From the NCBI GenBank assembly GCA_964638175.1, contig CAZWZY010000004.1, positions 12,926 to 76,925 on the forward strand: 64,000 bases of DNA, in the 5' to 3' direction. This document shows positions 9,370 through 28,382 of this stretch, piece by piece. Origin of the DNA: an uncultured Thermoplasmatales archaeon (GTDB taxonomy: Archaea; Thermoplasmatota; E2; DHVEG-1). Position 1 is the first letter of the stretch; each line of letters starts with the position of its first letter. The position numbers and the translations under genes were made by a program. The notes below the pieces were generated by a model, which had not been told where the DNA came from, made no database searches, and saw nothing but the letters and a program-made list of their open reading frames with translations.

Positions 9370-9444
9370 TGCTCCCGTCGGGATTCGAACCCGAGTGGCC
9401 GGCTCGAAAGGCCGGAATGATTGGCCGGACTACACCACGGGAGC
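9370..9444 (-). tRNA. tRNA-Glu (anticodon UUC)
   Basis: The minus-strand reading GCTCCCGTGGTGTAGTCCGGCCAATCATTCCGGCCTTTCGAGCCGGCCACTCGGGTTCGAATCCCGACGGGAGCA folds as a cloverleaf. It has a 7-bp acceptor stem, a GGTTCGAATCC T-arm, and an anticodon stem CCGGC/GCCGG with loop CTTTCGA (anticodon TTC). No CCA is encoded. Coordinates are within a few nt. Confidence 0.85.
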
Positions 9445-9519
9445 AAATAGCCAAGGTAAGTGCCAAGAATACCAAATACTTATTAAAAGTTTGTTGGTAA
9501 AAGTTACCCAGGCTTTTTT

Positions 9520-10650: not shown

Positions 10651-11622
10651 ATGAAACTTTCCTTCCCACGATACCCAGCTGATATCATTTTGTGTGTCTT
10701 GTTGAGTTTCTTATTAATCCCCTTGTCATTCATAGATGTGGGGGAGCTACTGCACGTCATTCTAGGACTGCCCTTTGTGATATTCATACCAGGATATGTG
10801 CTTGTTTTTGCGCTTTTCCCCACTAGAAAGTCAGAAAAGGGGATCGATACTGTAGAACGAATTGCATTAAGCATCGGTCTCTCATTAGTAATCGTAGCTC
10901 TTATTGGAGTGGGACTTAATTACACGCCCTTTGATATACAACAATCCTCAAGTGGTTTTTGCCTTTTTTTCTTTATAATTAGTGTTGGAGCCGTTGCAAT
11001 CTATAGATGGATAAAGGCAGCCTCAGACGAGAGATTTTTCCTGTCTATTCACTTGTCATTGACAACACCTAAACATAATGTTGATAAGGTACTTCTTATT
11101 ATGTTAGTTATAGTAATAGCGCTTACCATCGTTACTTTTGCATATGTTGCAATTACTCCAAAGTCGGCTGAAACCTATACTGAATTTTATTTACTGGGCT
11201 CAGATGGTACTTTATCAGACTATCCCCAAAACTTATATGCTGGTGAAAATGCGACGGTGACTGTTGGAATTACCAATCATGAACATCGGCCTGTTGATTA
11301 CACTATTGAAATCTGGATCCTTAACCAAACAATCTCTTACGAGGGGTTAAAAAATACAACGATATATCATAATGCATGGTTCTTACGCAAAATCAATATC
11401 ACTTTGCCCTATGAATCCAAAGACACAGAAATGCCATGGACTCCGCAGTGGCTGTATAACTATACGTTTAATATCACAAAAAAAGGAGAGTTTAAAGTGC
11501 TGTTTCTTCTTTTTACTGCACCAACTCAAATGTATGTGCGTTATGAAGATTACACAAGCATAATTGAACAAAACATTAACAATGCGTATGAAGAATTGCA
11601 CCTAAACGTGGGCATTCTCTAA
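10651..11622 (+). CDS. Hypothetical membrane protein (N-terminal polytopic region plus extracellular N-glycosylation-sequon-rich domain; possibly DUF1616-like)
   Basis: The 323-aa product has about 5 TM helices followed by a soluble region with many N-x-S/T sequons (NATVTV, NQTIS, NTTIY, NITLP, NYTFNITK). Confidence 0.45.
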   Translation: MKLSFPRYPADIILCVLLSFLLIPLSFIDVGELLHVILGLPFVIFIPGYVLVFALFPTRKSEKGIDTVERIALSIGLSLVIVALIGVGLNYTPFDIQQSSSGFCLFFFIISVGAVAIYRWIKAASDERFFLSIHLSLTTPKHNVDKVLLIMLVIVIALTIVTFAYVAITPKSAETYTEFYLLGSDGTLSDYPQNLYAGENATVTVGITNHEHRPVDYTIEIWILNQTISYEGLKNTTIYHNAWFLRKINITLPYESKDTEMPWTPQWLYNYTFNITKKGEFKVLFLLFTAPTQMYVRYEDYTSIIEQNINNAYEELHLNVGIL

Positions 11623-11638
11623 TTTTTCTTGATATGTT

Positions 11639-12025
11639 GTGAAAGCAATGCCTGGATTTATCCCTCATTTGATGGCCGGATGTGCCATGTTTATCATTGG
11701 TAGATATTACTTTAGAGACTATTTTGATGGCAGTGACAAAATAAAAGAACGTCTGTTTCTTGCAGTTGTATGCATACTATTTAGTTTCATCCCCGATATC
11801 TTTTTAATAGTATATTATTCAACCCACCTTGTTTCGTTTGAAACTGTTCTGCCCTGTCATGAACTTTCCCATGTGCTATGGGGGCCAATTGCTATTGCTT
11901 CCCTCCTTATTATTAAATATGGAATACAAACAAAGAGGGAACCAATATGGCTTATGGGTTTTTGGTCAATTGTTATTCATATGATAATGGATGTGCTAGT
12001 GCAGGAAAGTGGCATATGGTTCTAA
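11639..12025 (+). CDS. Hypothetical small polytopic membrane protein
   Basis: The 128-aa product predicts four hydrophobic helices and lies co-directional with the upstream membrane genes. Confidence 0.4.
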   Translation: MKAMPGFIPHLMAGCAMFIIGRYYFRDYFDGSDKIKERLFLAVVCILFSFIPDIFLIVYYSTHLVSFETVLPCHELSHVLWGPIAIASLLIIKYGIQTKREPIWLMGFWSIVIHMIMDVLVQESGIWF

Positions 12026-12099: not shown

Positions 12100-13077
12100 T
12101 TGAAAAAAAATGTCATATCTCTTGTTAAATTGCCCGATTCAATACTTTCCAAAGTATATTTGAAATTATTTCAGGAGAAGAGTTCTCTTAGCACCTTTCT
12201 TTTCCATGGATTATTTCGTGATGAAAAAGAGCGTTCGCCGAATCTTGTTGATCCGCAACCATGGATTACAGTAGAACAATTCCACCAGTTTGTAGAATAT
12301 TACATAGATCATGGCTACATATTCGTATCACCAGACGACGTTTTATCAGGTTTAAAAGATCATAATAGCTATATTATGATAACATTTGACGATGGCTATT
12401 ATAACAACGTTCATGCGTTGCCAGTTTTACAAAAATATGATATCCCTGCCATCTTTTTTATTTCTACCAATCACGTGATATATAACAAAGGATTCTGGTG
12501 GGACGTTTTGTACAGAGAACGAAAAAAAGCAGGAGGATCAACAAAAGAAATTGTCCGTGAGCAAAACGAATTAAAAACAAAGACTGCCGAAGCCATTGAA
12601 GCATATCTTCAGTTAACATTTGGAGAACGATCCCTGGAACCTCATGGAGATATTGATCGACCTTTTACACCTCACGAACTTCAAGAATTTTCTAGAGAGA
12701 ACAACGTCTTTCTTGGCAATCACACCAGCGATCATGCCATTCTTACCAACTATTGTTCTGATGCTATAAAAGCACAAATATGTAGTGCTCAGGATACTCT
12801 TAGTTCAATTACTGGAAGGACTCCTCTGGCTATTTCGTATCCAAACGGAAATTATTCCGATAGGATTATTAAGATATCGCGAGAGGCGGGAATTGAACTA
12901 GGGATCGCTATAGGATGCAGAAAAAATTACCTGCCATTTACCGATAAAAATGTAGATAATATGCGTCTTAATAGATTTGATATAACGGGATGTGATAATA
13001 TCCTTGCACAATGTGAGTTATTCAGATCAGATGTTCTGCTATATCCTTTGATTTTGAATGCATTAAAAAGAGTATAG
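12100..13077 (+). CDS. Polysaccharide deacetylase (NodB-homology, carbohydrate esterase family 4)
   Basis: The product carries the NodB motifs ITFDDGYYNN (Asp-Asp metal/catalytic pair), HAILT and NGNY. Translation starts at a TTG codon. Length is 325 aa. Confidence 0.8.
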   Translation: MKKNVISLVKLPDSILSKVYLKLFQEKSSLSTFLFHGLFRDEKERSPNLVDPQPWITVEQFHQFVEYYIDHGYIFVSPDDVLSGLKDHNSYIMITFDDGYYNNVHALPVLQKYDIPAIFFISTNHVIYNKGFWWDVLYRERKKAGGSTKEIVREQNELKTKTAEAIEAYLQLTFGERSLEPHGDIDRPFTPHELQEFSRENNVFLGNHTSDHAILTNYCSDAIKAQICSAQDTLSSITGRTPLAISYPNGNYSDRIIKISREAGIELGIAIGCRKNYLPFTDKNVDNMRLNRFDITGCDNILAQCELFRSDVLLYPLILNALKRV

Positions 13078-13117
13078 TATTTTGTGTCGATTGTATACCT
13101 AAGAATGACGGATTCAG

Positions 13118-13468
13118 TTATTCTGATTTGTTGACAATAAGAGCAATGGCAACAGCGGTATCTTCAGAGTGAGACAAGCTTATTTTTACATCGAAGTCGT
13201 CTGTGTTCACAATTGTAACAAAAGGAACTCCATTTTTGTTGTTTGCTATCTCGATCTGCTTTGGTAGTAGCTTGATACCGTAGCAAGAGAATGCTTTGAT
13301 AACTGCTTCTTTTCCAGCAAATCGGACTGCATAATGTTGGTAGGAATGTGCCTTGCTTTCGCAATAAGTGATTTCACGTTCTGTGAATATCTTGCTTAGA
13401 ATAGCTTTTTTTGAAGCGATATCCCTCTGGAATCGAGAGAGCGCCACACAGTCTATGCCGACTTCCAT
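13118..13468 (-). CDS. acpS: Holo-ACP synthase (AcpS-type 4'-phosphopantetheinyl transferase)
   Basis: The 116-aa product begins MEVGIDCVALSRFQ (a GIDxVxxxR start) and contains FAGKEAVIKA. Size and motifs are typical of AcpS. Confidence 0.75.
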   Translation of the reverse strand: MEVGIDCVALSRFQRDIASKKAILSKIFTEREITYCESKAHSYQHYAVRFAGKEAVIKAFSCYGIKLLPKQIEIANNKNGVPFVTIVNTDDFDVKISLSHSEDTAVAIALIVNKSE

Positions 13469-13506
13469 CTTATCTCCTCAGCAACAGTGGGTTGTGGTGC
13501 ATCTTT

Positions 13507-14556
13507 TTATACATCGCTATCTCCTGTGAAAAAATGCCAGTTGTTTTTATCTAAGAGATACGATTCTAATGAAAGATTTGTGTTATATAGCGCTACTATG
13601 GCATCATCCTCTTTTGTCATAAAGAAATTAAATTCTTTTAACTTCTTTTGAAATGATTCGTTTCCAAGATAACGAATAACAATGGCTCCCATTCCCTTTG
13701 CTTTGATATGTCGTATAAACTCTGTTAACAACACTGTCGGTACTTCCTCCGAGAATTTAAATAACATATCCACAATGTGACAGATATTTTCCTTTATATG
13801 ATAAACGACATATCCTGCAAGTTCTTTATTCTCGCCCATAAGACAAAAGATATCATACTCTTGTATAGATGGATACTTATATCTCCAGTTGAGAAACTGT
13901 GCAGTTCGCTCTCCAATGATAGTAAATTGTTTTGATGTTTCTTGCCAGAACGTATCAAATCTCTCGTCAAAATATTCTGGCATCTCTATGGTATATCTAT
14001 CATTTCTTTTAGAGTAGTGCTCTTTTGAGATGCTGTTGGCGACAACGTCTGCCATCGTTGAAACTATCCTGTTTTGAAGGATTGGAGGCAGATATTCTTT
14101 TGGCACCTTTTCTGTCTTTAATAACTTTATATATCGCTTAAATTTTCCAATTTCTACGTATCCTATTCGTAAAAAAAATGTTCGTGAAAGTTCATTTGGC
14201 ACTCCATAGATAAAGCTAAATCCAGCATCTCCTACTCTTGATAAAATTTCCTCTTGTAATCTGAGTGCTAGGCCAAATCCTCGATGTTTTTTATCTACAG
14301 CAAAATCTCCAGCTATTGCCGCATCCGTTGATTTACCATTCACAAACCATCTTCTTGGAAAAAGAGCTGCTGAACCAGTCACTGTATGAGAAGATTCATA
14401 TTTCGCCAACCAACAGGAAGCATTTCCGTAGGGACACTGTACATAGTTCCAGTCATATCTTTGTGACGATGCTACGTCTAGATTTCTCTGCAGTATGGGA
14501 AGAATATCTTTTTTGTCACGTTGTACATCAGCTTTAATGATGGTATAACTATTCAT
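13507..14556 (-). CDS. FemAB-like / GNAT-fold acyltransferase
   Basis: The 349-aa product has a GNAT acyl-CoA/ACP binding signature (HRGFGLALRL) in a roughly 340-aa two-lobed architecture. That arrangement is typical of FemAB-related proteins found in exopolysaccharide loci. Confidence 0.55.
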   Translation of the reverse strand: MNSYTIIKADVQRDKKDILPILQRNLDVASSQRYDWNYVQCPYGNASCWLAKYESSHTVTGSAALFPRRWFVNGKSTDAAIAGDFAVDKKHRGFGLALRLQEEILSRVGDAGFSFIYGVPNELSRTFFLRIGYVEIGKFKRYIKLLKTEKVPKEYLPPILQNRIVSTMADVVANSISKEHYSKRNDRYTIEMPEYFDERFDTFWQETSKQFTIIGERTAQFLNWRYKYPSIQEYDIFCLMGENKELAGYVVYHIKENICHIVDMLFKFSEEVPTVLLTEFIRHIKAKGMGAIVIRYLGNESFQKKLKEFNFFMTKEDDAIVALYNTNLSLESYLLDKNNWHFFTGDSDV

Positions 14557-15548
14557 TTTATTCCTAACTTCTGTTGCACAAAGGCAACTGTTTTTTGGTC
14601 TTCGATTTTGTTAATTCTCTCTAATGCTGATTCTCGGTCCAAGTGTCCCTCTCGAACCAAGTTTGCTAATTCAAATGCATAGGGATGAAAATGAAATTGT
14701 TTCTTATGTACGACGTTTGCAAATGAATTCAGCAGGCAATTGGTGGAGTTCGCATCCGTGTCTTGAGGTGCTTTCCACCCGTATTGACATATTTCTCGGT
14801 ATACTCTTTTTTCGTCGTACTCTAAAAACGCCAGGGGATGGATATTATATGGAAAGCGATACGAACCATCAAAATGCTTTTCCTCAAGGAAATAGGGGCT
14901 TATCTCATCTCCAACGATTTGATGCAGTGGTTGAAAGATTGCTTTTTGCATCATCTTTATCAGTTGAGCGTTGTTTTTCATGATTGATGAAGTAATGGGT
15001 GCTTGGCCCGGCGACCAGCCAAATGCAATAAAGGGAATATCTTTTTCGAGCGCGGTACGAAGGGCGCTGAATTTTACGATTCCCATGCAAGATGTACAAA
15101 TCGTACTCGACCGTTCAATGGTTTTTACGGCATATGGATTGTTGGTTGAACATTCGTAAAAAATTTTTTTAAGGACATCAAAACGGGGTTTGAGAGTGAT
15201 ATGATCGATTCCCAAATTTTCCATCACCGTTCTGATATTCTTGAACGCCTGTTCTGAAAGAAATCCATTATCAAAAGTAATAGCAAGAATGTTTAAGCCA
15301 TATGTTTCCTTCAATTTGATGGTGGTGTAAGTACTATCTTTGCCACCACTATAACACATTAGAGCATCGTAACTACTTTTTCCTTTGTACTCTTTAATCA
15401 ACTCCTCAAATTTTTGTTTGCACACGGTCTTTTTATCTTTTAGATGATGTATGCCCTTAAATTCAAGACAGAAGTTACAGATCCCATTCTCATTAATTCT
15501 GATTCCTGGAAAGGTTTCAGGTAATATGCATTTAAGACAGCGTTTCAT
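14553..15548 (-). CDS. N-acetyl sugar amidotransferase (WbuX/PseA-like PP-loop ATP pyrophosphatase with N-terminal Cys4 zinc ribbon)
   Basis: The internal Met (MKRCLKCILPETFPGIRINENGICNFC) has a G-rich RBS directly upstream. The PP-loop CYSGGKDSTY is present. The longer ORF-track start would overlap the upstream gene by 44 nt. Confidence 0.7.
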   Translation of the reverse strand: MKRCLKCILPETFPGIRINENGICNFCLEFKGIHHLKDKKTVCKQKFEELIKEYKGKSSYDALMCYSGGKDSTYTTIKLKETYGLNILAITFDNGFLSEQAFKNIRTVMENLGIDHITLKPRFDVLKKIFYECSTNNPYAVKTIERSSTICTSCMGIVKFSALRTALEKDIPFIAFGWSPGQAPITSSIMKNNAQLIKMMQKAIFQPLHQIVGDEISPYFLEEKHFDGSYRFPYNIHPLAFLEYDEKRVYREICQYGWKAPQDTDANSTNCLLNSFANVVHKKQFHFHPYAFELANLVREGHLDRESALERINKIEDQKTVAFVQQKLGIK

Positions 15549-16536
15549 TTCCCCCCTCCGTATTTTCCTGATCAAGTGTTGGAGGTAGTTTTCTTAAGTG
15601 TTTTGTAGCAGTATATTTGCTTGCGAAATCCCTGAATGCCCGTTGTACTTGTTGCTCCTCTAAATTCATTGCTTTGCACACTTCAGACACTTCGATATTG
15701 TTTTCCCACGCGTACAACAAAGGGTCAAGGAGATCATAGGGGATACGAAAATAGAATTCCTCATCACTTACCTGAAAACTAAAAGTGTCTGGACTTGGTG
15801 ATCTTTCTATGATCTCTGGGATCACGCCCGTATAATTCGAGAGCTGGTACACCTGTGTTTTATACAGGTGAGATAGAGGCTCGATATCAACTCCGCCATC
15901 TCCATACTTAACAAAAAAGCCCTGTAATAATTCAGTTTTGTTGGTTGTACCGCATACAAGATAATTTTTCATTTCTGCGTAATAATATAAATACATCATC
16001 CGTGTTCGCTGTTTGGTATCCGTAGCAGCGACAATACCGTTAAGTGCTTTTTTATTAAGTCGAAATGACCTTACGTTACCTTTGTTATCCTCTATTATTA
16101 ATGTGAAAACGTTGTATGCACCCTTGGATAACAAATCAGAAGGCAAGGTAATTTTTACTCTATGTTTGATTGAGTAATCTGGATAAATTTTTTTAATAAA
16201 CTCATCTCTTTTCTTATATGTTCCAACTTTCTCAAGAACCGTAGTTATGTCAACGATCTCTATTTCGATTCCTAATTTTTCTGCTTGTTTTTTGGCATAC
16301 ATAATACTTACTGGGTTAGATTCTTTTTCTGGAAGTAGTACACCAAATACCCTATCCTTTCCAAGTGCCCGCACACATAACTCAGCGGCAAGAGCAGAGT
16401 CGATGCCACCACTCAACCCTATTACTATGCCATCTCGCTTCATTGAGTCTGTTTGTTGTTTGATGAATGAACAAACCTGATCAATCTCCTTTTTGCAATC
16501 AAGTTTTAGAATCTCTTTTTGAAACGTCATTATCAT
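15532..16536 (-). CDS. NAD+ synthetase-like PP-loop amidotransferase (NadE family)
   Basis: The product has GIVIGLSGGIDSALAAEL near its N-terminus, the SGGxDS PP-loop. NadE-like motifs follow (KTELLQGFFVKYGDGGVDIEPL). Length is 334 aa. Confidence 0.6.
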   Translation of the reverse strand: MIMTFQKEILKLDCKKEIDQVCSFIKQQTDSMKRDGIVIGLSGGIDSALAAELCVRALGKDRVFGVLLPEKESNPVSIMYAKKQAEKLGIEIEIVDITTVLEKVGTYKKRDEFIKKIYPDYSIKHRVKITLPSDLLSKGAYNVFTLIIEDNKGNVRSFRLNKKALNGIVAATDTKQRTRMMYLYYYAEMKNYLVCGTTNKTELLQGFFVKYGDGGVDIEPLSHLYKTQVYQLSNYTGVIPEIIERSPSPDTFSFQVSDEEFYFRIPYDLLDPLLYAWENNIEVSEVCKAMNLEEQQVQRAFRDFASKYTATKHLRKLPPTLDQENTEGGNETLS

Positions 16537-16562
16537 ATTACTCCTATACTAAAGTTGTAAGT

Positions 16563-18110
16563 TCATACTCCAGTTGTCTCAGCTAAATACTTTAAATGTA
16601 TCTTTCCACTCGGTGTCTTTGGTAGCTGTTGATGAATTTCTACATATTTGGGGATCATGAATTGTTCTAGGTGTTTAGAGCATTGTAGAAGAATGCCCTT
16701 TTTAGATATGGATGAGCCTTCCCTCAACGAGACGACAGCTTTTATTGCTTGTCCAACTATTTTATCTGGTACTCCGACCACGCCCGCCTCAAGAACGTCA
16801 TCTATTTCATAAAGCACATTTTCTACTTCTTTTGGACTGACCAACCCTCCCGCCGTCTTAATCATGTCATCTTTCCGAGCAACGAAATAAAGGTAATTTT
16901 CATCATCCATTTTAAATAAATCTCCTGTAAACAAATTTTTTTCTCCAGGGTAATCTCCTTGCTTTAGTTTTTTTGCAGTCTCCTCAGGGCGATTCCAGTA
17001 CCCTTTCATCACGTTTGCACCTCTCACTACTAGCTCGCCAATCTCTCCCGGATTCGTGATCCTTTCTCCGACTTCGTTTACAAGATAGACCTCAGTATCA
17101 GGTATCGCCTTTCCGACAGAGGTTGGTCTTTTTGAGAGTTCCCCGGGTGGTAGGTAGGTCGCCCGCTTACATTCGGTAAGGCCATACATAGAATAGATTT
17201 TGGTTTTGGGGAATATTTCCTGAAGTCTGACTATATGTTTTACTGGTAATGTTTGAGCAGTGCTCGTGATATATCGTAATTTGGAAAAGTCGTAGGAATC
17301 TAAATTTTTCAATTTCAAAAGAATAGCAGCAATTGCAGGTACAAGAGGAAAACCCGTAATCTTCTCTTTAACAATCACGTCGATGATTTGGTAAGGATAC
17401 AGGAATGACTTCTCCAAGAATGCTGTTCCCCCAAATTTTATAGCCATTAGAATTTGATAGAGCCCATAGTCAAAAGAAAGAGGAAGACAATTAAGAATGA
17501 TGTCTTGGCTTGTGTTCTCTAAGTACGTAATAATAGAATTTGCGGCAGTTACCATATTCTGGTGTGTAAGCATGACGCCTTTGGGGTTACCTGTTGAACC
17601 AGAAGTATATATCAAACTTGCTAAATCAATGCTTATACAATTACTCCGAGGGCAGGATGTTGGATGCTGTAACGCCTCGTTGAAAGAAACCAACGTGGGG
17701 TTGTTGCGGGAATATTCATCGGTTACCAGTATCGTGGCTAACTCAGAGCAATGCAAAATAGTCTGGGAGACTTCCTCAAGGTGTCTTTCGTCTGTTATCA
17801 ATATTTTAGCTTGGCAATCATTTAGAATATATTGTAATTTTTTTGCTTTCACTTGAGGATGTATTATCACAAAAACGCCTGAAGCTTTTAATGCTCCAAA
17901 GAGAGATACGACTGATTCGACAGAATTTTCAAGGTATATTGCAACCCTATCTTGCTTTTGTAAACCATAAAATATTAATGCATTTGCTAGGGAGTTGGCG
18001 GCCTGTTCTAGTTCGAGAAAAGATGCCCTCTTGTTCTGACTAATCAATGCCATTTTGTTTGAGAATCTTTTTGCGCTTTGCTCCAAGAATTTATTTACCA
18101 ACATGTCCAA
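16563..18110 (-). CDS. AMP-dependent synthetase/ligase (acyl-CoA/acyl-ACP ligase)
   Basis: The 515-aa product carries the AMP-binding signature YTSGSTGNPKGV, a second core motif YGLTE, and GEIGELVVRG...GDL..D..GYL..R.KD.IK. Confidence 0.8.
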   Translation of the reverse strand: MDMLVNKFLEQSAKRFSNKMALISQNKRASFLELEQAANSLANALIFYGLQKQDRVAIYLENSVESVVSLFGALKASGVFVIIHPQVKAKKLQYILNDCQAKILITDERHLEEVSQTILHCSELATILVTDEYSRNNPTLVSFNEALQHPTSCPRSNCISIDLASLIYTSGSTGNPKGVMLTHQNMVTAANSIITYLENTSQDIILNCLPLSFDYGLYQILMAIKFGGTAFLEKSFLYPYQIIDVIVKEKITGFPLVPAIAAILLKLKNLDSYDFSKLRYITSTAQTLPVKHIVRLQEIFPKTKIYSMYGLTECKRATYLPPGELSKRPTSVGKAIPDTEVYLVNEVGERITNPGEIGELVVRGANVMKGYWNRPEETAKKLKQGDYPGEKNLFTGDLFKMDDENYLYFVARKDDMIKTAGGLVSPKEVENVLYEIDDVLEAGVVGVPDKIVGQAIKAVVSLREGSSISKKGILLQCSKHLEQFMIPKYVEIHQQLPKTPSGKIHLKYLAETTGV

Positions 18111-18390
18111 TCTTCTTTGTTATATAGGTAGTTATTTTATTCAAAGAATCCAAGTTATCGGGAACTAGTTCATCGTCTTCTACAGTAATATTAAACGTCT
18201 CCTCGATGTAACTTACCAGCTCCAATACTCCTGTCGAATCGATAATCCCTTTTTCCATGAACGAATCATTTTTATTAAGGACTGTTGAACCATTGCCTAG
18301 TCGAAAGTTATCGCGGATAAATAGTTGTAATTTTCCCCTAATTTCGTCTTCGTCTCTTTTGTGTACTTTTATCATTACGAATCCTCTCAC
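18091..18390 (-). CDS. Acyl carrier protein
   Basis: The 99-aa product has the IIDSTGVLELVSYIEETF segment, which contains the conserved DS(T/L) phosphopantetheine-attachment Ser. It overlaps the ligase gene by 20 nt. Confidence 0.7.
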   Translation of the reverse strand: MRGFVMIKVHKRDEDEIRGKLQLFIRDNFRLGNGSTVLNKNDSFMEKGIIDSTGVLELVSYIEETFNITVEDDELVPDNLDSLNKITTYITKKIGHVGK

Positions 18391-18794
18391 AACTAATATT
18401 TGATGAATTTGGAACCCTGTTTACGTATCTTCTAAGTACCTCTTCTAAATTATAAAAAAAGGTAATGTTCTGAATTTTTTTCGGGTACATTCCACTTTCT
18501 CCCTTATATTCTTCCGCTTCTGATTCAGATTGAATATTTCTAGTATTAAGCACTATGATTTTTTTTACGGTCAATAGTCATAAATCATCATCTTTATTAA
18601 TTATATAGTATATTATTTTTATCATAAAAATAGAAAAGATAATCTCACACAATTGTGCTCAATAAGAACAACTTTAATGAAAATATTTAAATATAAACTT
18701 TATTTTATTGATAATAATATTAATTTATGTTTGTGGGGGCTTGTCGTATAACGCGCATCTATCCATCGAGACTGTGTAATGGGAGGATAATCGA
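18391..18794. promoter_or_regulatory. Extremely AT-rich divergent intergenic region (putative bidirectional TATA/BRE promoters)
   Basis: About 400 nt of low-GC sequence with multiple TATA-like elements (ttaattatatagtatatta, aaatataaactttatttta). It separates the minus-strand ACP operon from the plus-strand glycosyltransferase operon. Confidence 0.4.
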
Positions 18795-19727
18795 GTGAAA
18801 GAGGCAACCCCTCTTCGTACTCTTGCTTTGATTCCATGCTACAACGAGGCGTCTACTATTGGTAGCATGGTAATCAAAAGTAGACGCTATGTAACTGAGG
18901 TGTTAGTTGTTGATGATGGTAGTGTCGACGATACTGCTAAAGTGGCCAGAGATGCAGGGGCAGTTGTCATTTCTCATAAAACAAATTGTGGAAAATGTCT
19001 CGCCATCAAAACAGGATTCAGATATGCATTACGGAAAAATTTTGATTATGTGGTTACCATCGATGGTGATGGACAACACAATCCTGACGAAATATCGATA
19101 GTTTTGGGAGACTTAATGAATAATGGCCATGACATAACTCTGGGCCTTAGATCAGGTGTTAACACTGAAATGCCAGCTTGGCGAAAAGTAGGAAAACGAG
19201 TCTTAGATTACGCGACTGGTTTTGGTAATGGCGGATACGTCACTGATAGTCAATGTGGTTTTCGTGCATTCAACAATAGAGCAATTAGAGCGATCACTCC
19301 AAAATTAAATGGTGAGGCATTTAGTGTCGAAAGTGAACAGTTGATTCGAGCTCATGAGTTGGGGTTGGAAGTAACTCATGCGAATATTACTTGTAAGTAC
19401 AAAGATTTAGATACATCCACAAAAAATCCTGCCTCACATGGTTTTTCTGTGCTACGTTATATCATTTGGCTTATCGCCGAGAGACGACCTTTGCTTTTCA
19501 TAGGTGTTCCTGGTTTTGTTCTATCGATAGTTGGTATTTTTTTAGGAATACTTACGTTACAAAGTTATAATCATACCGGTTTTTTTTCTATTCCTTACGC
19601 TCTTCTTTGTAGCGTTTTTTTGATTGTTGGTGCACTTGCAATGTTCATGGGAATGATGTTGAACGTTCTTCCCCACATAATTAAACAAGCGAGAGGACAG
19701 GAAGAATACAATGATGCCTTCAGATAA
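18795..19727 (+). CDS. GT2 dolichyl-phosphate hexose synthase-like glycosyltransferase (DPM1/GtrB/AglJ-like) with two C-terminal TM helices
   Basis: The product contains LIPCYNEASTIG and VVDDGSVDDT (DxD-containing GT-A motifs). Two hydrophobic helices occupy the final 80 aa or so. Length is 310 aa. Confidence 0.8.
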   Translation: MKEATPLRTLALIPCYNEASTIGSMVIKSRRYVTEVLVVDDGSVDDTAKVARDAGAVVISHKTNCGKCLAIKTGFRYALRKNFDYVVTIDGDGQHNPDEISIVLGDLMNNGHDITLGLRSGVNTEMPAWRKVGKRVLDYATGFGNGGYVTDSQCGFRAFNNRAIRAITPKLNGEAFSVESEQLIRAHELGLEVTHANITCKYKDLDTSTKNPASHGFSVLRYIIWLIAERRPLLFIGVPGFVLSIVGIFLGILTLQSYNHTGFFSIPYALLCSVFLIVGALAMFMGMMLNVLPHIIKQARGQEEYNDAFR

Positions 19728-19823
19728 GTATGACCATTTTTTGATACAGGATATAATCAGAACAACGGATTTGACGATAGACCAATGTAGAATACATGCT
19801 ACTGAGCCAACTGGGGAACCATC

Positions 19824-20981
19824 ATGAAGATTGCGATGGTAACCGAGTATTTGGCTCCTGAAGGACTGCCTCGCTTTGGAGGGGTTGATGCCAGAACTGT
19901 TAATCTAGCCAGACACTTGACAAGAAAGAATGACGTTCATATTATTACAACGTTTGTTGAAGGCGGAAATAGAGTAGAGCACTTTGATGGGGTTACCATA
20001 CATAGAGTTGGTAAAAAAAGAAAATTCACTCAGAGAGGTGATTTTTTTCAACGATTGCAATTTACTCACCAAGTACGTTCCGAGGTTATACGACTGCAAC
20101 CAGACATTGTGGATGGTAGTGGGTTTGTTTCATATGCGGGTAGTTACAGAGGAGCTGAAAACATAGGAGTTCCCTCTGTTGCGACAATTCATGAGGTTTG
20201 GCAGGGGGAATGGTTTCAAAACATGGGACTGATTAATGGTTTTGCTGGGCACATTTTGGAAAATCAATACCTCCGATACAATTTTAGCGGATATATTTCG
20301 GTGAGTAAGTTCACAAAAAAAAGATTGATGGAGAAGATTGGTATCGAAAAAGAGAGAATTGCGGTCGTATACAACGGAATCGATTTGGATTTATTCAACA
20401 AAACTATTGCTGATGGAAAATATCCTGAACCAACGATAGTAACTGCATGTCGGTTAGTTCCATATAAAAGAGTTGATGATCTACTTAGAGCAGTACAACT
20501 CTTGAGAATAGATCATCCAGATGTACATCTAAAAATTATCGGCGATGGTCCCCACAAAACGTATCTTAAAAACTTATCAAAACACTTGAAAATTGAAAAT
20601 AACATTGATTTTCTTGGTAGACTAAACGATATAACGGATGTGATTAAAGTCATGAAAAAATCACATGTGTTTGCATTGCCAAGTATAGTTGAAGGTTTTG
20701 GGATGGTTATTGTTGAGGCCATGGCTGCAGGCATTCCTTATGTCGCATCGGATATTCCACCGATTCATGAAGTGACTGACGGCGGTGTGGGTGGTGCACT
20801 ATGTCAACCAAAAAACTATGAGGATCTTGCAGCAAAACTACACTTCTTCTTGAATGACGACTTAGAACAGACTAATGCCATCCAAAAAGAAAGGATCAAT
20901 CATGTTAGGAGGTATGAATGGCAAAAGTTAGCGTCAGGCATTGAACAATGGTATGAGGCTCTCTGTGGGGGTAACGCTTAG
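19824..20981 (+). CDS. Glycosyltransferase family 4 (GT-B)
   Basis: The 385-aa product has the C-terminal GT1/GT4 signature FALPSIVEGFGMVIVEAMAAGIPYVASD. Confidence 0.8.
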   Translation: MKIAMVTEYLAPEGLPRFGGVDARTVNLARHLTRKNDVHIITTFVEGGNRVEHFDGVTIHRVGKKRKFTQRGDFFQRLQFTHQVRSEVIRLQPDIVDGSGFVSYAGSYRGAENIGVPSVATIHEVWQGEWFQNMGLINGFAGHILENQYLRYNFSGYISVSKFTKKRLMEKIGIEKERIAVVYNGIDLDLFNKTIADGKYPEPTIVTACRLVPYKRVDDLLRAVQLLRIDHPDVHLKIIGDGPHKTYLKNLSKHLKIENNIDFLGRLNDITDVIKVMKKSHVFALPSIVEGFGMVIVEAMAAGIPYVASDIPPIHEVTDGGVGGALCQPKNYEDLAAKLHFFLNDDLEQTNAIQKERINHVRRYEWQKLASGIEQWYEALCGGNA

Positions 20982-21434
20982 ATGAAAATTTGCCTAGCAT
21001 TTTCACCAGGCGGTCATTTCATAGAGATGAAAAGATTGATAGATGCATTCAAGGACCATGATGTTTTTTTTGCAACAATTAAAACAAGAACAACAAGCAA
21101 TCTAGCTCCTGCGTATTATCTTAGAGACAGCAGCGGATTAACAAAGATCCACATGATTCGTAATATGTTCATGGTGTCTCTTCAAAGCTTGCGGATCATT
21201 TTGCAGGAGCGACCTCGGGTAATCGCGAGTACAGGAGCAGACGTTACTATACCTCTCTGTTATCTTGGTAAATTGTTTGGTGCGAAAGTTATCTTTATCG
21301 AGAGCATATGCAGAATAAATGATCTTTCTTCATCCGGAAAACTAGTGTATCCGATTGCAAATCTCTTTTTAATTCAATGGAAAACGTTAACAAAAAAATA
21401 TCGTAGAGCCAAATATTGGGGGAATATTCTATGA
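20982..21434 (+). CDS. Alg14-like oligosaccharide biosynthesis protein (membrane-anchor/acceptor half of a split UDP-GlcNAc transferase)
   Basis: The 150-aa product has an N-terminus MKICLAFSPGGHFIEMKRL typical of Alg14/EpsF. Its ATG overlaps the stop of the upstream GT4 gene. Confidence 0.7.
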   Translation: MKICLAFSPGGHFIEMKRLIDAFKDHDVFFATIKTRTTSNLAPAYYLRDSSGLTKIHMIRNMFMVSLQSLRIILQERPRVIASTGADVTIPLCYLGKLFGAKVIFIESICRINDLSSSGKLVYPIANLFLIQWKTLTKKYRRAKYWGNIL

Positions 21435-21907
21435 TACTTGTTACAGTTGGCATGCATTCACAAGGATTTGATCGATTGATTAAAAAGATGGATGAACTTG
21501 CTGGAAAAACAAATGAAGAGGTAATAATGCAAATTGGTTCATCGTCTTATATGCCAAAAAATGCAAAATACTTTTTTTTTAAAGATTCACAAGACATGCA
21601 AGCATTGATTAAAAAAGCAAGGCTTGTGGTTTGTCACGGTGGTGCTGGAACAATACTTACAGTAATGGATGAGAATGTCCCTCTTGTTGCAGTTCCCCGG
21701 TTAAAGAAGTACCATGAGGCAATCGATGACCATCAAATCGAACTTGTTGAGTATCTGGCAAAAGATGGAACAATAACGGCAGTGTATGATTTTGAAGCAC
21801 TATCGAGCGTCCTAGATGAAACCTTCAATACTTCTTCTGTTACTATAAAAAAAGACAACACGTTAGCGGGAGCAATCAAGGTGTATCTTACTACACTGAC
21901 GGGATGA
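21431..21907 (+). CDS. Alg13-like glycosyltransferase (GT28 C-terminal domain; catalytic half of the split transferase)
   Basis: The internal Met begins MILVTVGMHSQGFDRLIKKMDEL. The product also has VVCHGGAGTIL, matching the Alg13/MurG C-terminal nucleotide-sugar domain. Confidence 0.7.
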   Translation: MILVTVGMHSQGFDRLIKKMDELAGKTNEEVIMQIGSSSYMPKNAKYFFFKDSQDMQALIKKARLVVCHGGAGTILTVMDENVPLVAVPRLKKYHEAIDDHQIELVEYLAKDGTITAVYDFEALSSVLDETFNTSSVTIKKDNTLAGAIKVYLTTLTG

Positions 21908-21923
21908 GTTCATTGGTGATGCT

Positions 21924-23063
21924 ATGCATGTATGTAATGTAATATCTACTCCTTATCCTCCTTGGGAAGGAATAGGACAGTATATTCGCGGGTACAGTAC
22001 TAAATTACTCGAAAAGGGTCATCAGGTTACTATCATCACTCGAGGCCCTTGGAAAAAAACACAACGAGAGACTATCGATGGCATTGAACTCATTAAAGTC
22101 CCATTTTTCCCTCTTTATCCTTTCTACATTCATTTGCACGGTCTTTTTGTTAATAACCTCTTTAAGTCTCTCGAGCCACAGGTAGACATCGTTCACATTC
22201 ATTCACCATTATCTCCTTTAGTAAAAACGTCTCTTCCTGTGATAGTGACTATTCATTCCCCACTGCTTTCAGACAGCGAACATGTCGAGGTGAGATCACT
22301 TTCTTCACTGTTAACAAAAATTTCTGCACGACTGGTGAGTTACCCATTGGAATTAAAATTAATCAACGCTTCAGATATGGTAACAACGGTATCTAACTCC
22401 GTTGCCCAAGAACTACAGAGCTATCAGTTGGATCCAAAGACAGTACGAATACTCTATAATGGTGTTGACGAGACGTTCTTTTCACCACAGCCTAATAAAC
22501 AATGTGGAGGAACTAAAAACATTTTGTATGTGGGCCGTATAACCCGCGAAAAAGGATTATTTGATCTTATCGAGGCGGGCAGGTACATTTGCGATAAACG
22601 ATCTGATGTACATTTTACTTGTGTAGGTAACGGAAAGGAACTTGGCATATTAAAACAAAACACAAGAACAAGGGGGCTTGAAGATAAATTTACGTTTACT
22701 GGACAAGTTGATAAAAAAAGACTTTTAAAACTATACCACGACGCAGATATCTTTGTTTTTCCTTCGTATCATGAAGGATTCCCAACGGTACTTCTGGAAG
22801 CCATGGCTTGTGGTTTACCTATTGTAGCAACAGATGTCAACGGAAATCGAGATGTGCTATCTGCTGGAAAAAATGGCGTTTTAGTGCCTCCAAAATCTCC
22901 GAAAGGAATGGCAGAAGCTATACTTACTCTTATCGAAAATGAACCGCTTGCAGATACGCTGGGTACACATGCAAGAAAAACAGTAGAGGAAAATTATACC
23001 TGGGATATAGTAACAAACAGGATTTTGGAATGTTACTATTTGCTTGATGGACGAAGATCGTGA
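21924..23063 (+). CDS. Glycosyltransferase family 4
   Basis: The 379-aa product has the GT-B signature FVFPSYHEGFPTVLLEAMACGLPIVATD. Confidence 0.8.
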   Translation: MHVCNVISTPYPPWEGIGQYIRGYSTKLLEKGHQVTIITRGPWKKTQRETIDGIELIKVPFFPLYPFYIHLHGLFVNNLFKSLEPQVDIVHIHSPLSPLVKTSLPVIVTIHSPLLSDSEHVEVRSLSSLLTKISARLVSYPLELKLINASDMVTTVSNSVAQELQSYQLDPKTVRILYNGVDETFFSPQPNKQCGGTKNILYVGRITREKGLFDLIEAGRYICDKRSDVHFTCVGNGKELGILKQNTRTRGLEDKFTFTGQVDKKRLLKLYHDADIFVFPSYHEGFPTVLLEAMACGLPIVATDVNGNRDVLSAGKNGVLVPPKSPKGMAEAILTLIENEPLADTLGTHARKTVEENYTWDIVTNRILECYYLLDGRRS

Positions 23064-23075
23064 AGGGGAAAGTGT

Positions 23076-25845: not shown

Positions 25846-25946
25846 GAGGATAGTAAGCATATGAAAAAACGTGTCAAATTAATATTGCTTGGGGTGCGCT
25901 TTTATTATTGGGGGGTGTTCCCTTGTGGTGACTCGAGGCGATAGGG

Positions 25947-26705: not shown

Positions 26706-26749
26706 TACTGGAAAACAGGTGACCGTGTCTTCGTGAACAGATTGTTCTT

Positions 26750-28354: not shown

Positions 28355-28382
28355 TGTTCTCCATACTGTTACGTTTACTTTT

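What the first reader, a model, noticed from the sequence alone, without database searches (positions are those of the whole stretch)
12100..18390. ACP-dependent sugar acylation/amidation module in an archaeal glycan locus (counterpart of bacterial exosortase/PEP-CTERM EPS accessory genes)
Seven consecutive genes form a module. They encode a NodB-type polysaccharide deacetylase, an AcpS-type phosphopantetheinyl transferase, a FemAB/GNAT-fold transferase, a WbuX-type N-acetyl-sugar amidotransferase, a NadE-like PP-loop amidotransferase, an AMP-dependent ligase and a dedicated acyl carrier protein. The last four overlap or abut on one strand. The set is self-contained. The ligase can load an acyl or aminoacyl group onto the ACP, AcpS activates the ACP, the FemAB/GNAT-like enzyme can transfer the group to an amino sugar, the deacetylase can free the amine, and the amidotransferases can make amidino or amido sugars. 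The same gene set is known from bacterial exosortase-associated exopolysaccharide loci. Its presence next to an archaeal glycosyltransferase/Wzx cluster predicts an N-acylated or amidated surface glycan, either an S-layer N-glycan or an exopolysaccharide. I do not know of this chemistry being described in methanogens.
Basis: partly seen in the sequence, partly recalled or inferred. Interest (0 to 1): 0.8.

Follow-up and report, generated by a model that had tools for sequence, protein, structure and literature searches.

The report
Carrier-protein aminoacylation cassette in archaeal glycan locus
An uncultured archaeon's surface-sugar gene cluster holds a portable enzyme set, acquired across domains, that probably loads an aspartate-like amino acid onto a small carrier protein and attaches it to a sugar; in bacteria the same set sits beside a protein-anchoring enzyme whose attachment point is still unknown.

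Summary
Four corrections are needed.

1. The organism is a Thermoplasmatota MAG, not Methanosarcinales.
2. The 349-aa transferase is a tandem GNAT of the Eis/N-myristoyltransferase type, not FemAB.
3. The ligase is not a fatty-acyl ligase. It carries all five hallmark residues of VinN, the enzyme that loads an aspartate-type β-amino acid onto a stand-alone ACP.
4. Amidino, amidated and N-acylated sugars are already known in methanogen N-glycans.

The core (ACP, ligase, NadE-like or AsnB, WbuX-like, GNAT) is a conserved portable cassette in archaea and many bacterial phyla. In nine bacterial loci it abuts an exosortase (XrtW type). AcpS travels with it only in archaea, which normally lack ACP systems. 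Three natural fusions tie the parts together: KS-AT-ACP-GNAT, ligase-NadE, and hydrolase-GNAT.

Best reading (about 0.5): an ACP-dependent analogue of the Wbp/Vim linking-sugar pathway. The steps would be deacetylate an amino sugar, load an Asp-type amino acid on the ACP, amidate, then transfer. Which molecule the two PP-loop enzymes act on, and what the acceptor is, remain inferred. I rate it a new variant of a known kind.

The parts
12100..13077 (+). CE4 (NodB-type) polysaccharide deacetylase, cytoplasmic. Proposed to remove an N-acetyl group and expose a sugar amine (VimE analogue).
   Evidence: PF01522 E=1e-24. TFDDG and HTSDH motifs in the sequence. No TM segment or signal peptide. Orthologs sit beside the cassette in L002, L008 and L042, and as a fusion in L041. 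No TIGR03006 hit.
13118..13468 (-). AcpS-type phosphopantetheinyl transferase dedicated to the cassette's carrier protein.
   Evidence: PF01648 E=3e-16; TIGR00556 70.2 bits, above the cutoff of 45.35. Present with the cassette in 8 loci, all in the archaeal clade, and in none of the bacterial loci. ACP and ACP synthase are missing from most archaea (PMC3533463).
13507..14556 (-). Tandem-GNAT N-acyltransferase of an uncurated family. Proposed to move the carrier-bound aminoacyl group onto an amine acceptor.
14553..15575 (-). WbuX-like (NASAT-like) PP-loop ATP pyrophosphatase with a zinc-type four-cysteine motif. The true start is probably the ATG at 15548 (MKRCLKC...).
   Evidence: TIGR03573 147 bits, below the cutoff of 203, but aligned over full length. 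CLKC...GICNFC and SGGKDS are conserved in every full-length ortholog. 54% identical to the Nitrospirota ortholog that lies next to an exosortase. No WbuY/WbuZ partner in any locus.
15532..16536 (-). NadE-like NH3-dependent PP-loop amidotransferase (carboxylate to carboxamide chemistry). In many bacterial versions its place is taken, or shared, by AsnB.
   Evidence: NF002048 395 bits, above the cutoff of 313; PF02540 E=2.6e-59. SGGIDS PP-loop. About 70 extra residues relative to P. horikoshii NadE 2e18. Sits inside the cassette in 15 loci. Natural ligase-NadE fusion P0458.
16563..18110 (-). VinN-like adenylation enzyme. Predicted to activate an aspartate-type amino acid through its side-chain carboxyl and load it on the adjacent carrier protein.
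   Evidence: Best PDB relatives are NRPS A domains: LgrA 287 bits, VinN 3wvn 206 bits. For the specificity-loop segment VinN is the top PDB hit at 52 bits, with 'MYGLTECKR' against 'MYGQTECKR' aligned without gaps. 'SFDYGLYQ' aligns with VinN 'SWDFGLYK', and 'ITSTAQ' with 'FTNSAA'. The hallmark residues are defined in PMC11253843. 110 of 120 homologs keep SFDYG[LI]Y[QN] and 118 of 120 keep YGLTECKR.
18091..18390 (-). Dedicated carrier protein (ACP/PCP type), translationally coupled to the ligase. The phosphopantetheine site is the Ser in GIIDSTG.
   Evidence: PF00550 22.6 bits, above the cutoff of 20.8. Sub-cutoff matches to OlsHI ACP, AmcB and DltC. Overlaps the ligase gene by 20 nt. Orthologs lie directly upstream of the ligase in 25 loci.
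18391..18794 (.). AT-rich divergent intergenic region between the cassette operon (-) and the glycosyltransferase operon (+). Probably holds promoters for both.
   Evidence: Sequence read. No Rfam match. No remnant of the FemAB-like gene that occupies this position in L002.
18795..29357 (.). Glycan assembly genes next to the cassette: GT2, GT4, Alg14-like, Alg13-like, two GT4, a 542-aa protein with about 10 TM segments and no Pfam hit, a hexapeptide acyltransferase, a Wzx-type flippase and an NAD-dependent epimerase/dehydratase.
   Evidence: Pfam scans and TM prediction. The same GT2-GT4-Alg14-Alg13-GT4 block flanks the cassette in L002 and L042.
10651..12025 (+). DUF1616 membrane protein and a YdjM-like membrane protein on the other side of the module, syntenic in relatives.
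   Evidence: PF07760 E=9.6e-68; PF04307 weak. Same order in L002.

Best explanation
The module is a carrier-protein-dependent N-aminoacylation system for a cell-surface glycan. It is an ACP-dependent analogue of the bacterial Wbp/Vim 'linking sugar' pathway.

Proposed steps:
1. AcpS converts the apo carrier protein to its holo form. The dedicated AcpS is needed because archaea normally lack this machinery.
2. The VinN-like ligase adenylates an aspartate-type (acidic, β-amino) acid and thioesters it to the carrier. This leaves a free carboxylate, held by the Lys-Arg loop.
3. The NadE-like enzyme (AsnB in many bacterial versions) amidates a carboxylate. The WbuX-like enzyme then performs a second ATP-dependent amidation or amidination. 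The substrate is either the tethered amino acid or the sugar itself (uronamide and acetamidino groups, as made by WbpS and WbpG).
4. The cytoplasmic CE4 deacetylase removes an N-acetyl group from a lipid- or nucleotide-linked GlcNAc-type sugar made by the adjacent Alg13/14 and GT genes.
5. The tandem GNAT transfers the aminoacyl group from the carrier to the freed sugar amine, and Wzx flips the product.

Result: a glycan carrying an amide-linked amino acid with a free, cationic amine.

Shown here: the gene set, its conservation, the fusions, the folds and the ligase pocket signature. Inferred: the identity of the amino acid, the order of steps, the substrates of the two PP-loop enzymes, and the acceptor.
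For: - Domain assignments.
- Operon structure.
- All seven proteins are predicted cytoplasmic.
- The cassette is conserved across archaea and at least 8 bacterial phyla.
- Every ligase locus with complete flanks carries NadE-like, AsnB, or both.
- The ligase carries the VinN hallmarks D/Y/T/K/R with the same loop length (definitions in PMC11253843). The motifs are near-invariant in 120 homologs.
- VinN-type enzymes load stand-alone ACPs, and the tethered acid is then modified at its free carboxylate (PMC10662134).
- The GNAT is a tandem-GNAT N-acyltransferase fold with a pantetheine-binding motif. A family member is fused behind KS-AT-ACP.
- A ligase-NadE fusion exists.
- GNAT and CE4 deacetylase remain neighbours even in loci that lack ACP and ligase: L006, L026, L027.
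- AcpS is present only in archaeal versions, which fits the general absence of ACP systems in archaea (PMC3533463).
- Experimental precedent for the logic 'CE4 deacetylase, then aminoacyl transfer, plus an AsnB amidation' comes from Wbp/Vim (PMC7468200).
- Adjacent Alg13/14, GT and Wzx genes.
Against: - No biochemical data exist for any member, and all carriers are uncultured MAGs.
- The five-gene cassette also occurs alone, far from glycan genes (L044 Latescibacterota). It occurs with only an epimerase nearby in Methanomassiliicoccales. So a sugar acceptor is not certain.
- The window locus has no Wbp-type dehydrogenase or aminotransferase genes that would make a uronic or diamino sugar.
- The WbuX-like protein is below its family cutoff and lacks the otherwise constant HisH/HisF partners, so its reaction may differ from acetamidino formation.
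- The NadE-like protein passes an NCBIfam NAD(+) synthase model.
- The A4-A5 segment of the ligase matches 4-coumarate ligases about as well as VinN. Specificity prediction from five residues is not proof.
Confidence: 0.5

Rival explanations
1. The cassette makes a diffusible small molecule: an N-aminoacyl or N-acyl amide natural product made by a minimal NRPS-like A-T pair, tailoring amidotransferases and a GNAT that acts as the off-loading condensing enzyme. Its position next to glycan genes in this archaeon would then be incidental, or related to export.
For: - The ligase is closest to NRPS adenylation domains and to VinN, a natural-product enzyme.
- There is a dedicated carrier protein and PPTase.
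- One GNAT family member is fused to a PKS module.
- The stand-alone cassette in Latescibacterota has no glycan genes within 10 kb.
[quoted passage not shown] 2011, cited in PMC11631085).
Against: - Seven-gene synteny with a CE4 deacetylase and a GT/Wzx block recurs in several archaeal lineages.
- GNAT and deacetylase pair up even without ACP and ligase.
- No thioesterase, condensation domain or dedicated exporter is present.
- The bacterial copies are embedded in EPS/exosortase loci.
Confidence: 0.15
2. Lipid-type N-acylation, the reader's 'acyl' option. The ligase would load a fatty or hydroxy acid on the ACP, and the GNAT would N-acylate a deacetylated sugar, as NodB/NodA/NodF do for Nod factors or LpxC/LpxD for lipid A. 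The product would be a lipidated glycan.
For: - High-ranking NCBIfam hits after TIGR03098 are long-chain fatty-acid CoA ligase models.
- The GNAT resembles N-myristoyltransferase.
- The ACP's best sub-cutoff hit is an ornithine-lipid ACP.
- The deacetylase-plus-ACP logic matches Nod factor and lipid A biosynthesis (my own knowledge of those pathways).
Against: - The ligase has Asp where acyl-CoA ligases have other residues. In the printed 4CL alignment, 'PLFHIY' lines up with 'PLSFDY'.
- It carries the Lys-Arg loop that recognises the substrate in VinN.
- The two amidotransferase-type enzymes have no role in a fatty-acyl route.
Confidence: 0.1
3. Protein acylation. The Eis/NMT-like tandem GNAT would aminoacylate or acylate a secreted or S-layer protein (an N-terminus or a Lys) rather than a sugar. 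In bacteria the targets would be the PEP-CTERM substrates of the neighbouring exosortase.
For: - The closest folds, Eis and N-myristoyltransferase, act on proteins, peptides or aminoglycosides.
- The GNAT gene abuts the exosortase and a PEP-CTERM protein gene in Nitrospirota.
Against: - All cassette proteins are cytoplasmic.
- GNAT associates persistently with CE4 deacetylases.
- A glucosamine N-acetyltransferase is also among the top structural neighbours (5kf1).
- None of the window proteins checked has a C-terminal hydrophobic sorting signal.
Confidence: 0.08
4. Coincidental neighbours. The NadE-like gene would be the housekeeping NAD synthetase, the WbuX-like gene an ordinary acetamidino-sugar enzyme, and neither would work with the ligase and ACP.
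For: The NadE-like protein passes NF002048 'NAD(+) synthase'. The WbuX-like protein carries the family's two defining motifs.
Against: - Gene order and translational coupling are conserved across domains.
- A natural ligase-NadE fusion exists.
- AsnB appears in place of NadE-like at the cassette in several bacterial loci.
- HisH/HisF partners are absent.
Confidence: 0.03

Closest known systems
Wbp/Vim linking-sugar pathway of Porphyromonas gingivalis and Tannerella forsythia: VimE, VimA, WbpS (PMC7468200)
   Same: The logic is the same. A CE4 deacetylase exposes a sugar amine, a GNAT-superfamily transferase adds an amino acid, and an ATP-dependent amidotransferase makes an amide. The product's free amine anchors proteins through a sortase-like enzyme. 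The authors already proposed that exosortase loci use the same idea.
   Different: - The transferase here is an Eis/NMT-like tandem GNAT, not the VimA/FemAB family (no TIGR03019 hit).
- The donor comes from a dedicated ligase, ACP and AcpS, which Wbp/Vim does not include.
- The amidotransferase is NadE-like, not AsnB, in the archaeal version.
- There is an extra WbuX-like enzyme.
- No Wbp sugar genes and no sortase-type gene lie in the window.
VinN/VinL/VinO β-amino-acid starter-unit system of macrolactam polyketides (PMC11253843, PMC10662134)
   Same: It has a stand-alone adenylation enzyme with the same pocket hallmarks (D, aromatic, S/T, and Lys-Arg in a loop of the same length). It also has a stand-alone ACP, and the free carboxylate of the tethered acid is modified afterwards.
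   Different: Overall identity to VinN is modest (206 bits). The carboxylate-modifying partners are PP-loop amidotransferases, not a PLP decarboxylase. Off-loading is by a tandem GNAT, not a VinK acyltransferase feeding a PKS. The context is glycan or exosortase loci, not a polyketide cluster.
Exosortase A / PEP-CTERM accessory genes: TIGR03098 ligase, TIGR03108 AsnB amidotransferase, TIGR03019 FemAB, TIGR03006 deacetylase. TIGR03099 decarboxylase is included from my memory of the TIGRFAM descriptions.
   Same: TIGR03098 is the ligase's best family. Orthologs of ACP, ligase, WbuX-like and GNAT lie directly beside exosortase and EpsI genes. An AsnB with a sub-cutoff TIGR03108 match is in the bacterial loci.
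   Different: The window ligase (507 bits) and the XrtW-linked ligases (479-493 bits) are all below the 592-bit cutoff. The neighbouring exosortase is XrtW, not XrtA. The GNAT and deacetylase are not the curated PEP-CTERM families. The archaeal loci have no exosortase or archaeosortase within 10 kb.
NASAT/WbuX family: WbuX, WbpG, PseA, M. maripaludis acetamidino enzyme, LpNASAT 8WEX (PMC10607449)
   Same: It has the SGGKDS PP-loop, the CxxC...GxCxxC four-cysteine motif, and a full-length alignment to TIGR03573.
   Different: The score is below the family cutoff. It matches 8WEX at only 24.6 bits. No WbuY/WbuZ (HisH/HisF) ammonia-supplying partner is present. It is always paired instead with ligase, ACP, GNAT and NadE-like or AsnB.
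Nod-factor (NodB/NodA/NodF) and lipid A (LpxC/LpxD) N-acyl exchange; DltA/DltC D-alanylation (my own knowledge of these pathways)
   Same: All deacetylate a GlcNAc-type sugar and then re-acylate it from an acyl carrier protein. Dlt uses an adenylation enzyme with a small dedicated carrier protein to decorate a cell-surface polymer.
   Different: Those acyltransferase families are different. The donor here is predicted to be an amino acid rather than a fatty acid. Dlt esterifies outside the cell through DltB and DltD, whereas this transfer is predicted to be cytoplasmic and to form an amide.

Membership tests
TIGR03098 (acyl-CoA ligase, exosortase A system-associated) | Score at or above the curated cutoff (592.35 bits) | tested here: not met
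   506.9 bits. Ligases beside exosortase XrtW score 479-493 bits and also fall below the cutoff.
TIGR03098 (acyl-CoA ligase, exosortase A system-associated) | Genomic association with an exosortase / PEP-CTERM system | tested here: not met
   No exosortase-like ORF in the window or in archaeal loci (custom HMM, E<=10). Bacterial orthologs do abut exosortases in 9 loci.
VinN-type β-amino-acid adenylation enzymes | Asp230 (GrsA D235), bulky residue at 231, Ser299, and Lys330-Arg331 in a β13β14 loop one residue shorter than in α-amino-acid A domains (PMC11253843) | tested here: met
   The window has D, Y, T, K and R at these positions. The loop aligns with VinN without gaps, and VinN is the top PDB hit for that segment (52 bits against 34).
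VinN-type β-amino-acid adenylation enzymes | Loads a stand-alone ACP | tested here: met
   An ACP gene lies directly upstream and overlaps the ligase by 20 nt. This arrangement is conserved in 25 loci. Actual loading has not been assayed.
VinN-type β-amino-acid adenylation enzymes | Biochemical specificity for 3-methylaspartate or aspartate | not testable with these tools
   Requires ATP-PPi exchange assays or ACP-loading mass spectrometry.
NASAT / WbuX (TIGR03573) | PP-loop SGGxDS and four-cysteine motif CxxC-Xn-[GN]xCxxC (PMC10607449) | tested here: met
   SGGKDS and CLKC...GICNFC in the window, and both motifs in all 22 full-length orthologs.
NASAT / WbuX (TIGR03573) | Score at or above the curated cutoff (203.2 bits) | tested here: not met
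   147.4 bits. The Nitrospirota ortholog scores 151.8 bits.
NASAT / WbuX (TIGR03573) | Constant association with the HisH/HisF homologs WbuY and WbuZ (recalled from the TIGRFAM description; seen in the Sphingomonas cluster) | tested here: not met
   phmmer with HisH and HisF found no homolog in the window or in 41 other loci. The only hits belong to a complete his operon in L042.
NAD(+) synthase (NF002048 / PF02540) | HMM score above cutoff and an intact PP-loop | tested here: met
   395.2 bits, above the cutoff of 313; SGGIDS.
NAD(+) synthase (NF002048 / PF02540) | Acts on NaAD in NAD biosynthesis | not testable with these tools
   Context argues against this: position inside the cassette in 15 loci, a ligase-NadE fusion, and AsnB taking its place in several bacterial loci.
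FemAB family (PF02388 / TIGR03019, includes VimA) | Sequence match to the family models | tested here: not met
   No hit at E<=0.01 for the 349-aa protein. It also has no similarity to the FemAB-like protein of L002.
FemAB family (PF02388 / TIGR03019, includes VimA) | FemX/FemA among the nearest structural neighbours | tested here: not met
GNAT superfamily (tandem-GNAT, Eis/NMT-like) | GNAT fold repeated twice and an R/Q-x-x-G-x-G/A cofactor-binding motif | tested here: met
CE4 / NodB polysaccharide deacetylase | PF01522 match with the TFDD and H-x-x-x-H metal and catalytic motifs | tested here: met
   E=1e-24. TFDDG and HTSDH are in the sequence. It is not the PEP-CTERM subfamily, since there is no TIGR03006 hit.
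Wbp/Vim linking-sugar pathway | Wbp enzymes that make a 2,3-diacetamido uronic acid (WbpA, WbpB, WbpE, WbpD) | tested here: not met
   Pfam scans of the locus genes from 9.5 to 29.4 kb show no UDP-sugar dehydrogenase or aminotransferase. Only a hexapeptide acyltransferase and an epimerase are present.
Wbp/Vim linking-sugar pathway | A partner sortase-like transpeptidase and cargo proteins with a C-terminal signal | tested here: not met
   None found in the 64-kb window. The rest of the genome could not be searched.

The most novel reading that the evidence does not exclude
The cassette would build the long-sought acceptor for exosortase-type (and perhaps archaeosortase-type) protein anchoring. 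That acceptor would be an amino sugar carrying an amide-linked, amidated aspartate-type residue, whose free amine is the nucleophile that receives the cleaved C-terminus of sorted proteins. This would parallel Fem-built cross-bridges for sortase A and the seryl/glycyl linking sugar for PorU. It would also be the first carrier-protein-dependent step in archaeal surface-glycan synthesis, acquired together with its own AcpS by inter-domain transfer.
Probability: 0.2. Interest if true: 0.85.

Novelty: new variant of a known kind. Interest (0 to 1): 0.6.

Why it matters
1. ACP and phosphopantetheinyl transferase systems are missing from most archaea. A glycan-locus cassette that brings its own AcpS shows how such chemistry can be imported across domains.
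2. The analysis re-reads the uncharacterised 'exosortase-associated acyl-CoA ligase' type as a VinN-like amino-acid-to-ACP ligase. That gives a concrete, testable chemistry for exosortase loci, where the nucleophile that receives sorted proteins is still unidentified.
3. It defines a large uncurated tandem-GNAT family (more than 2,000 clusters at 50% identity) with a likely ACP-dependent donor.
4. The five genes are small and soluble, so they can be expressed in E. coli even though their hosts are uncultured.

Tried and rejected
- **Exact-match look-ups:** The taxon was inferred from ValRS homologs instead.
- **First genome scan:** the scan with the 29-sequence alignment failed for lack of a conserved stretch. 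It was repeated with 13 closer sequences.
- **'Rare family' idea:** 119 clusters suggested rarity, but this was rejected after the exhaustive profile search found 2,345 clusters at E<=1e-30.
- **FemAB-like remnant:** a search of window 18391-18794 found none.
- **Hidden sortase gene:** a custom exosortase HMM found nothing in the window or the archaeal loci.
- **WbuY/WbuZ partners:** none found.
- **C-terminal sorting signals:** none seen in the window proteins checked.
- **RNA elements:** Rfam found only the two tRNAs.
- **Literature gaps:** Craig et al. 2011 (PMC3187218) is not held. Nothing is published on XrtW.
- **Specificity code:** my first extraction used a GrsA fragment recalled from memory. 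Tool-made alignments to VinN replaced it.
- **A4-A5 segment:** this part of the ligase does not by itself separate VinN from 4-coumarate ligases.
- **Second structure prediction:** not run, because only single sequences of the PP-loop proteins were eligible for submission.

Full report
**Observation.** Pfam and NCBIfam give the following:
- 12100-13077(+): CE4 polysaccharide deacetylase (PF01522, E=1e-24), with TFDD and HTSDH motifs in the sequence.
- 13118-13468(-): AcpS (TIGR00556, 70 bits, above the cutoff of 45).
- 13507-14556(-): a 349-aa GNAT with only weak Acetyltransf_1/9 hits.
- 14553-15575(-): a WbuX-like PP-loop protein (TIGR03573, 147 bits over full length, below the cutoff of 203).
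- 15532-16536(-): a NadE-like PP-loop protein (NF002048, 395 bits, above the cutoff of 313).
- 16563-18110(-): an AMP-forming ligase whose best family is TIGR03098, 'exosortase A system-associated' (507 bits, below the cutoff of 592).
- 18091-18390(-): a carrier protein (PF00550, 22.6 bits, above the cutoff of 20.8).

Six of the genes form one co-oriented block with overlaps of 4-44 nt or gaps of 26-38 nt. The deacetylase converges on the block. The block is transcribed divergently from a cluster of GT2, GT4, Alg14, Alg13, two GT4, a 10-TM protein, a hexapeptide acyltransferase, Wzx and an epimerase. tRNA-Glu and tRNA-Gln genes flank the whole glycan locus.

**Organism.** The window is not from Methanosarcinales. 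Its valyl-tRNA synthetase is 74-77% identical to proteins named Thermoplasmatales archaeon SG8-52-1 and Thermoplasmatales/Thermoplasmatota MAGs. The closest genomic GNAT relatives are Thermoplasmatota MAGs. The cassette does occur in methanogen MAGs (Methanomassiliicoccales, Methanoregula), so methanogens are not excluded as carriers.

**Conservation.** The full seven-gene set, next to the same GT2-GT4-Alg14-Alg13-GT4 block, recurs in L002 (77% GNAT identity) and L042 (53%). I searched the ORFs of 39 non-redundant loci with the window proteins by phmmer. The results were:
- ACP in 25 loci.
- The window-type ligase in 17 loci.
- WbuX-like in 20 loci.
- NadE-like in 15 loci.
- AsnB in 11 loci.
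- CE4 deacetylase in 13 loci.

Every ligase locus with complete flanks has NadE-like, AsnB, or both. The 330-aa 'no Pfam' protein of the bacterial loci is a 54%-identical ortholog of the WbuX-like protein. A 4.3-Mb Latescibacterota contig carries the five-gene core alone. A 1.9-Mb Thermoplasmatales contig carries a decayed copy.

**Link to exosortases.** In nine bacterial loci the cassette directly abuts an exosortase. Five have separate EpsH and EpsI genes and four have a roughly 520-aa form. NCBIfam identifies the long form in L018 as XrtW (553 bits, above the cutoff of 425), with both an exosortase domain and an EpsI domain. The split form has XrtW as its best match. No exosortase-like or archaeosortase-like ORF was found in the window or within 10 kb in archaeal loci. 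In a neighbour-joining tree of the GNAT, the archaeal sequences form one clade nested among bacteria and sister to the XrtW-linked Nitrospirota clade. The tree has no support values, so this is indicative only.

**AcpS.** AcpS accompanies the cassette in eight loci, all in the archaeal clade, and in none of the bacterial loci. This fits the published finding that ACP and ACP synthase are missing from most archaea and were acquired by transfer where present (PMC3533463). It also argues that the carrier protein really is phosphopantetheinylated.

- MAB_4324.

No FemX or FemA structure appears in the lists. The protein has no PF02388 or TIGR03019 match. The N-terminal domain keeps the R-x-x-G-x-A cofactor motif. 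The family is large, with 2,345 clusters at 50% identity scoring E<=1e-30, but it has no dedicated curated model. One member is fused behind a complete KS-AT-ACP module, and another behind an α/β-hydrolase. The PKS fusion is independent evidence that the family takes its acyl donor from a phosphopantetheinyl carrier.

**The ligase.** Its best solved relatives are NRPS adenylation domains (LgrA module 2 at 287 bits, then 3wvn at 206 bits), ahead of malonyl-, oxalyl- and fatty-acyl-CoA ligases. 3WV4, 3WV5 and 3WVN are VinN, which binds 3-methylaspartate as a β-amino acid. According to the review (PMC11253843), its hallmarks are:
- Asp230, which binds the amino group.
- Bulkier residues Phe231 and Ser299.
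- A β13β14 loop one residue shorter than in α-amino-acid domains, carrying Lys330-Arg331.

Tool-made alignments show the window enzyme has D, Y, T, K and R at these positions, and the loop aligns without gaps. The aligned stretches are 'MYGLTECKR' against 'MYGQTECKR', 'SFDYGLYQ' against 'SWDFGLYK', and 'ITSTAQ' against 'FTNSAA'. For the loop segment, VinN is the best hit in the whole PDB (52 bits against 34 for the next). The next hits are TycA chains (5n81, 5n82). Among 120 homologs (59-100% identity), drawn from Thermoplasmatales, Methanomassiliicoccales, an Asgard MAG and many bacterial phyla, 110 keep SFDYG[LI]Y[QN] and 118 keep YGLTECKR. The family therefore probably activates one conserved, aspartate-type amino acid. 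VinN-type enzymes load stand-alone ACPs, and a decarboxylase then acts on the tethered acid (PMC10662134). From my memory of the TIGRFAM descriptions, the XrtA-associated TIGR03098 ligase is paired with a PLP decarboxylase (TIGR03099), which would be the same logic.

**The PP-loop enzymes.** The WbuX-like protein has both defining NASAT motifs (PMC10607449). However, it is below the family cutoff, matches 8WEX only weakly, and never has HisH/HisF partners. The NadE-like protein has an intact PP-loop and about 70 extra residues relative to archaeal NadE 2e18. A natural ligase-NadE fusion (P0458) ties it to the ligase's pathway. NadE and AsnB both convert a carboxylate to a carboxamide, and AsnB stands where NadE-like would be in several bacterial cassettes. 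This makes such a step a conserved part of the pathway.

Two placements remain open:
- **Option A:** the enzymes act on the sugar, making a uronamide and an acetamidino group, as WbpS and WbpG do.
- **Option B:** they act on the free carboxylate of the ACP-tethered amino acid.

Option B fits the fusion, the portable five-gene cassette and the Lys-Arg pocket. Option A has direct precedent, but the window lacks the genes needed to make uronic or diamino sugars.

**Closest experimental precedent.** In the Wbp/Vim pathway (PMC7468200), the CE4 enzyme VimE removes an N-acetyl group. VimA (FemAB family) then adds Ser or Gly to the freed amine, and the AsnB-type WbpS makes the uronamide. The sortase-like PorU joins secreted proteins to that amino acid's amine. 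The authors proposed that exosortase loci, which carry vimA-like, deacetylase and AsnB genes, make a similar acceptor. The module here repeats that logic with a different transferase family and a carrier-protein donor. Distant FemAB-like genes, whose best but far sub-cutoff match is TIGR03019, occur beside the cassette in three archaeal relatives but not in the window.

**Known chemistry in archaea.** Acetamidino and threonine-amide sugars (M. maripaludis, M. voltae), and a glyceroyl-N-acylated, C-6-amidated diaminoglucuronic acid (Methanoculleus marisnigri), are already described (PMC11407970). The predicted class of modification is therefore not new for methanogens. A carrier-protein route to it is not described in the papers I could search.

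**Verdict.** The best-supported mechanism is carrier-protein-dependent N-aminoacylation of a de-N-acetylated surface sugar with an amidated aspartate-type residue (confidence about 0.5). The main rivals are a small-molecule product (0.15), fatty N-acylation (0.10) and protein acylation (0.08). The most novel reading not excluded is that the product is the amine acceptor used by exosortase-type enzymes (0.2). I rate it a new variant of a known kind, with interest 0.6.

Noticed in passing
window 9368-9445 and 29496-29570; GC profile 8-34 kb: The glycan locus is bracketed by tRNA-Glu and tRNA-Gln genes. Its GC content (0.36-0.39) is lower than the 0.41-0.45 seen at 44-54 kb, which could mark an exchangeable island. 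Synteny with L002 extends beyond the tRNA-Glu side.
   Followed up: partly
L002 5360-6169 (also L009 15527-16279 and L041 18592-19674); window 18391-18794: Close relatives carry a FemAB-like gene next to the cassette, between GT2 and the ACP in L002. Its best but far sub-cutoff match is TIGR03019/FemX. The window has only a 404-nt AT-rich spacer at that position and no remnant of the gene.
   Followed up: yes
P0249 (1370 aa), P0311 (645 aa), P0458 (846 aa): Three natural fusions involve cassette families: KS-AT-ACP-tandem GNAT, α/β-hydrolase-tandem GNAT, and ligase-NadE-like.
   Followed up: partly
L041 387-3089 and 7402-8961: One archaeal-clade variant has a B12-binding radical SAM gene inserted between the NadE-like and WbuX-like genes. 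It also has a 900-aa deacetylase-methyltransferase fusion. This suggests extra tailoring, possibly methylation (3-methyl-Asp type chemistry?).
   Followed up: no
L018 2820-4397 and L019 2813-4357; also L021, L011, L014: A second ligase type has Ser or Cys in place of the amino-binding Asp (PFHYSYG motif). It co-occurs with, or replaces, the VinN-like ligase. Two adenylating enzymes in one locus recalls the VinN/VinM pair.
   Followed up: no
L043 8191-12567 (Thermoplasmatales CP070798): A decayed copy: a 119-aa deacetylase fragment, an epimerase, and ACP-ligase-NadE-like, with no WbuX-like or GNAT gene nearby.
   Followed up: partly
window 24217-25845: A 542-aa protein with about 10 predicted TM segments and no Pfam match sits between the GT4 genes and the hexapeptide acyltransferase. 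It could be a Wzy-like polymerase or another glycan-handling membrane protein.
   Followed up: partly
L042 12762-19089: A complete histidine biosynthesis operon is inserted between the deacetylase and the DUF1616 gene in one relative. Its HisH and HisF are the only such homologs near any cassette.
   Followed up: partly
window 60324-63686 and 57425-59260: A 1,120-aa NosD/β-helix repeat protein and a 611-aa protein with an N-terminal hydrophobic segment, probably surface proteins. Neither has a C-terminal hydrophobic sorting helix.
   Followed up: partly
window 6110-7321, 7451-8137, 9520-10383, 40413-41555: Four ORFs of 228-403 aa have no Pfam match at the thresholds used. The homolog of 9520-10383 in L002 carries a weak DUF7982 hit.
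   Followed up: no
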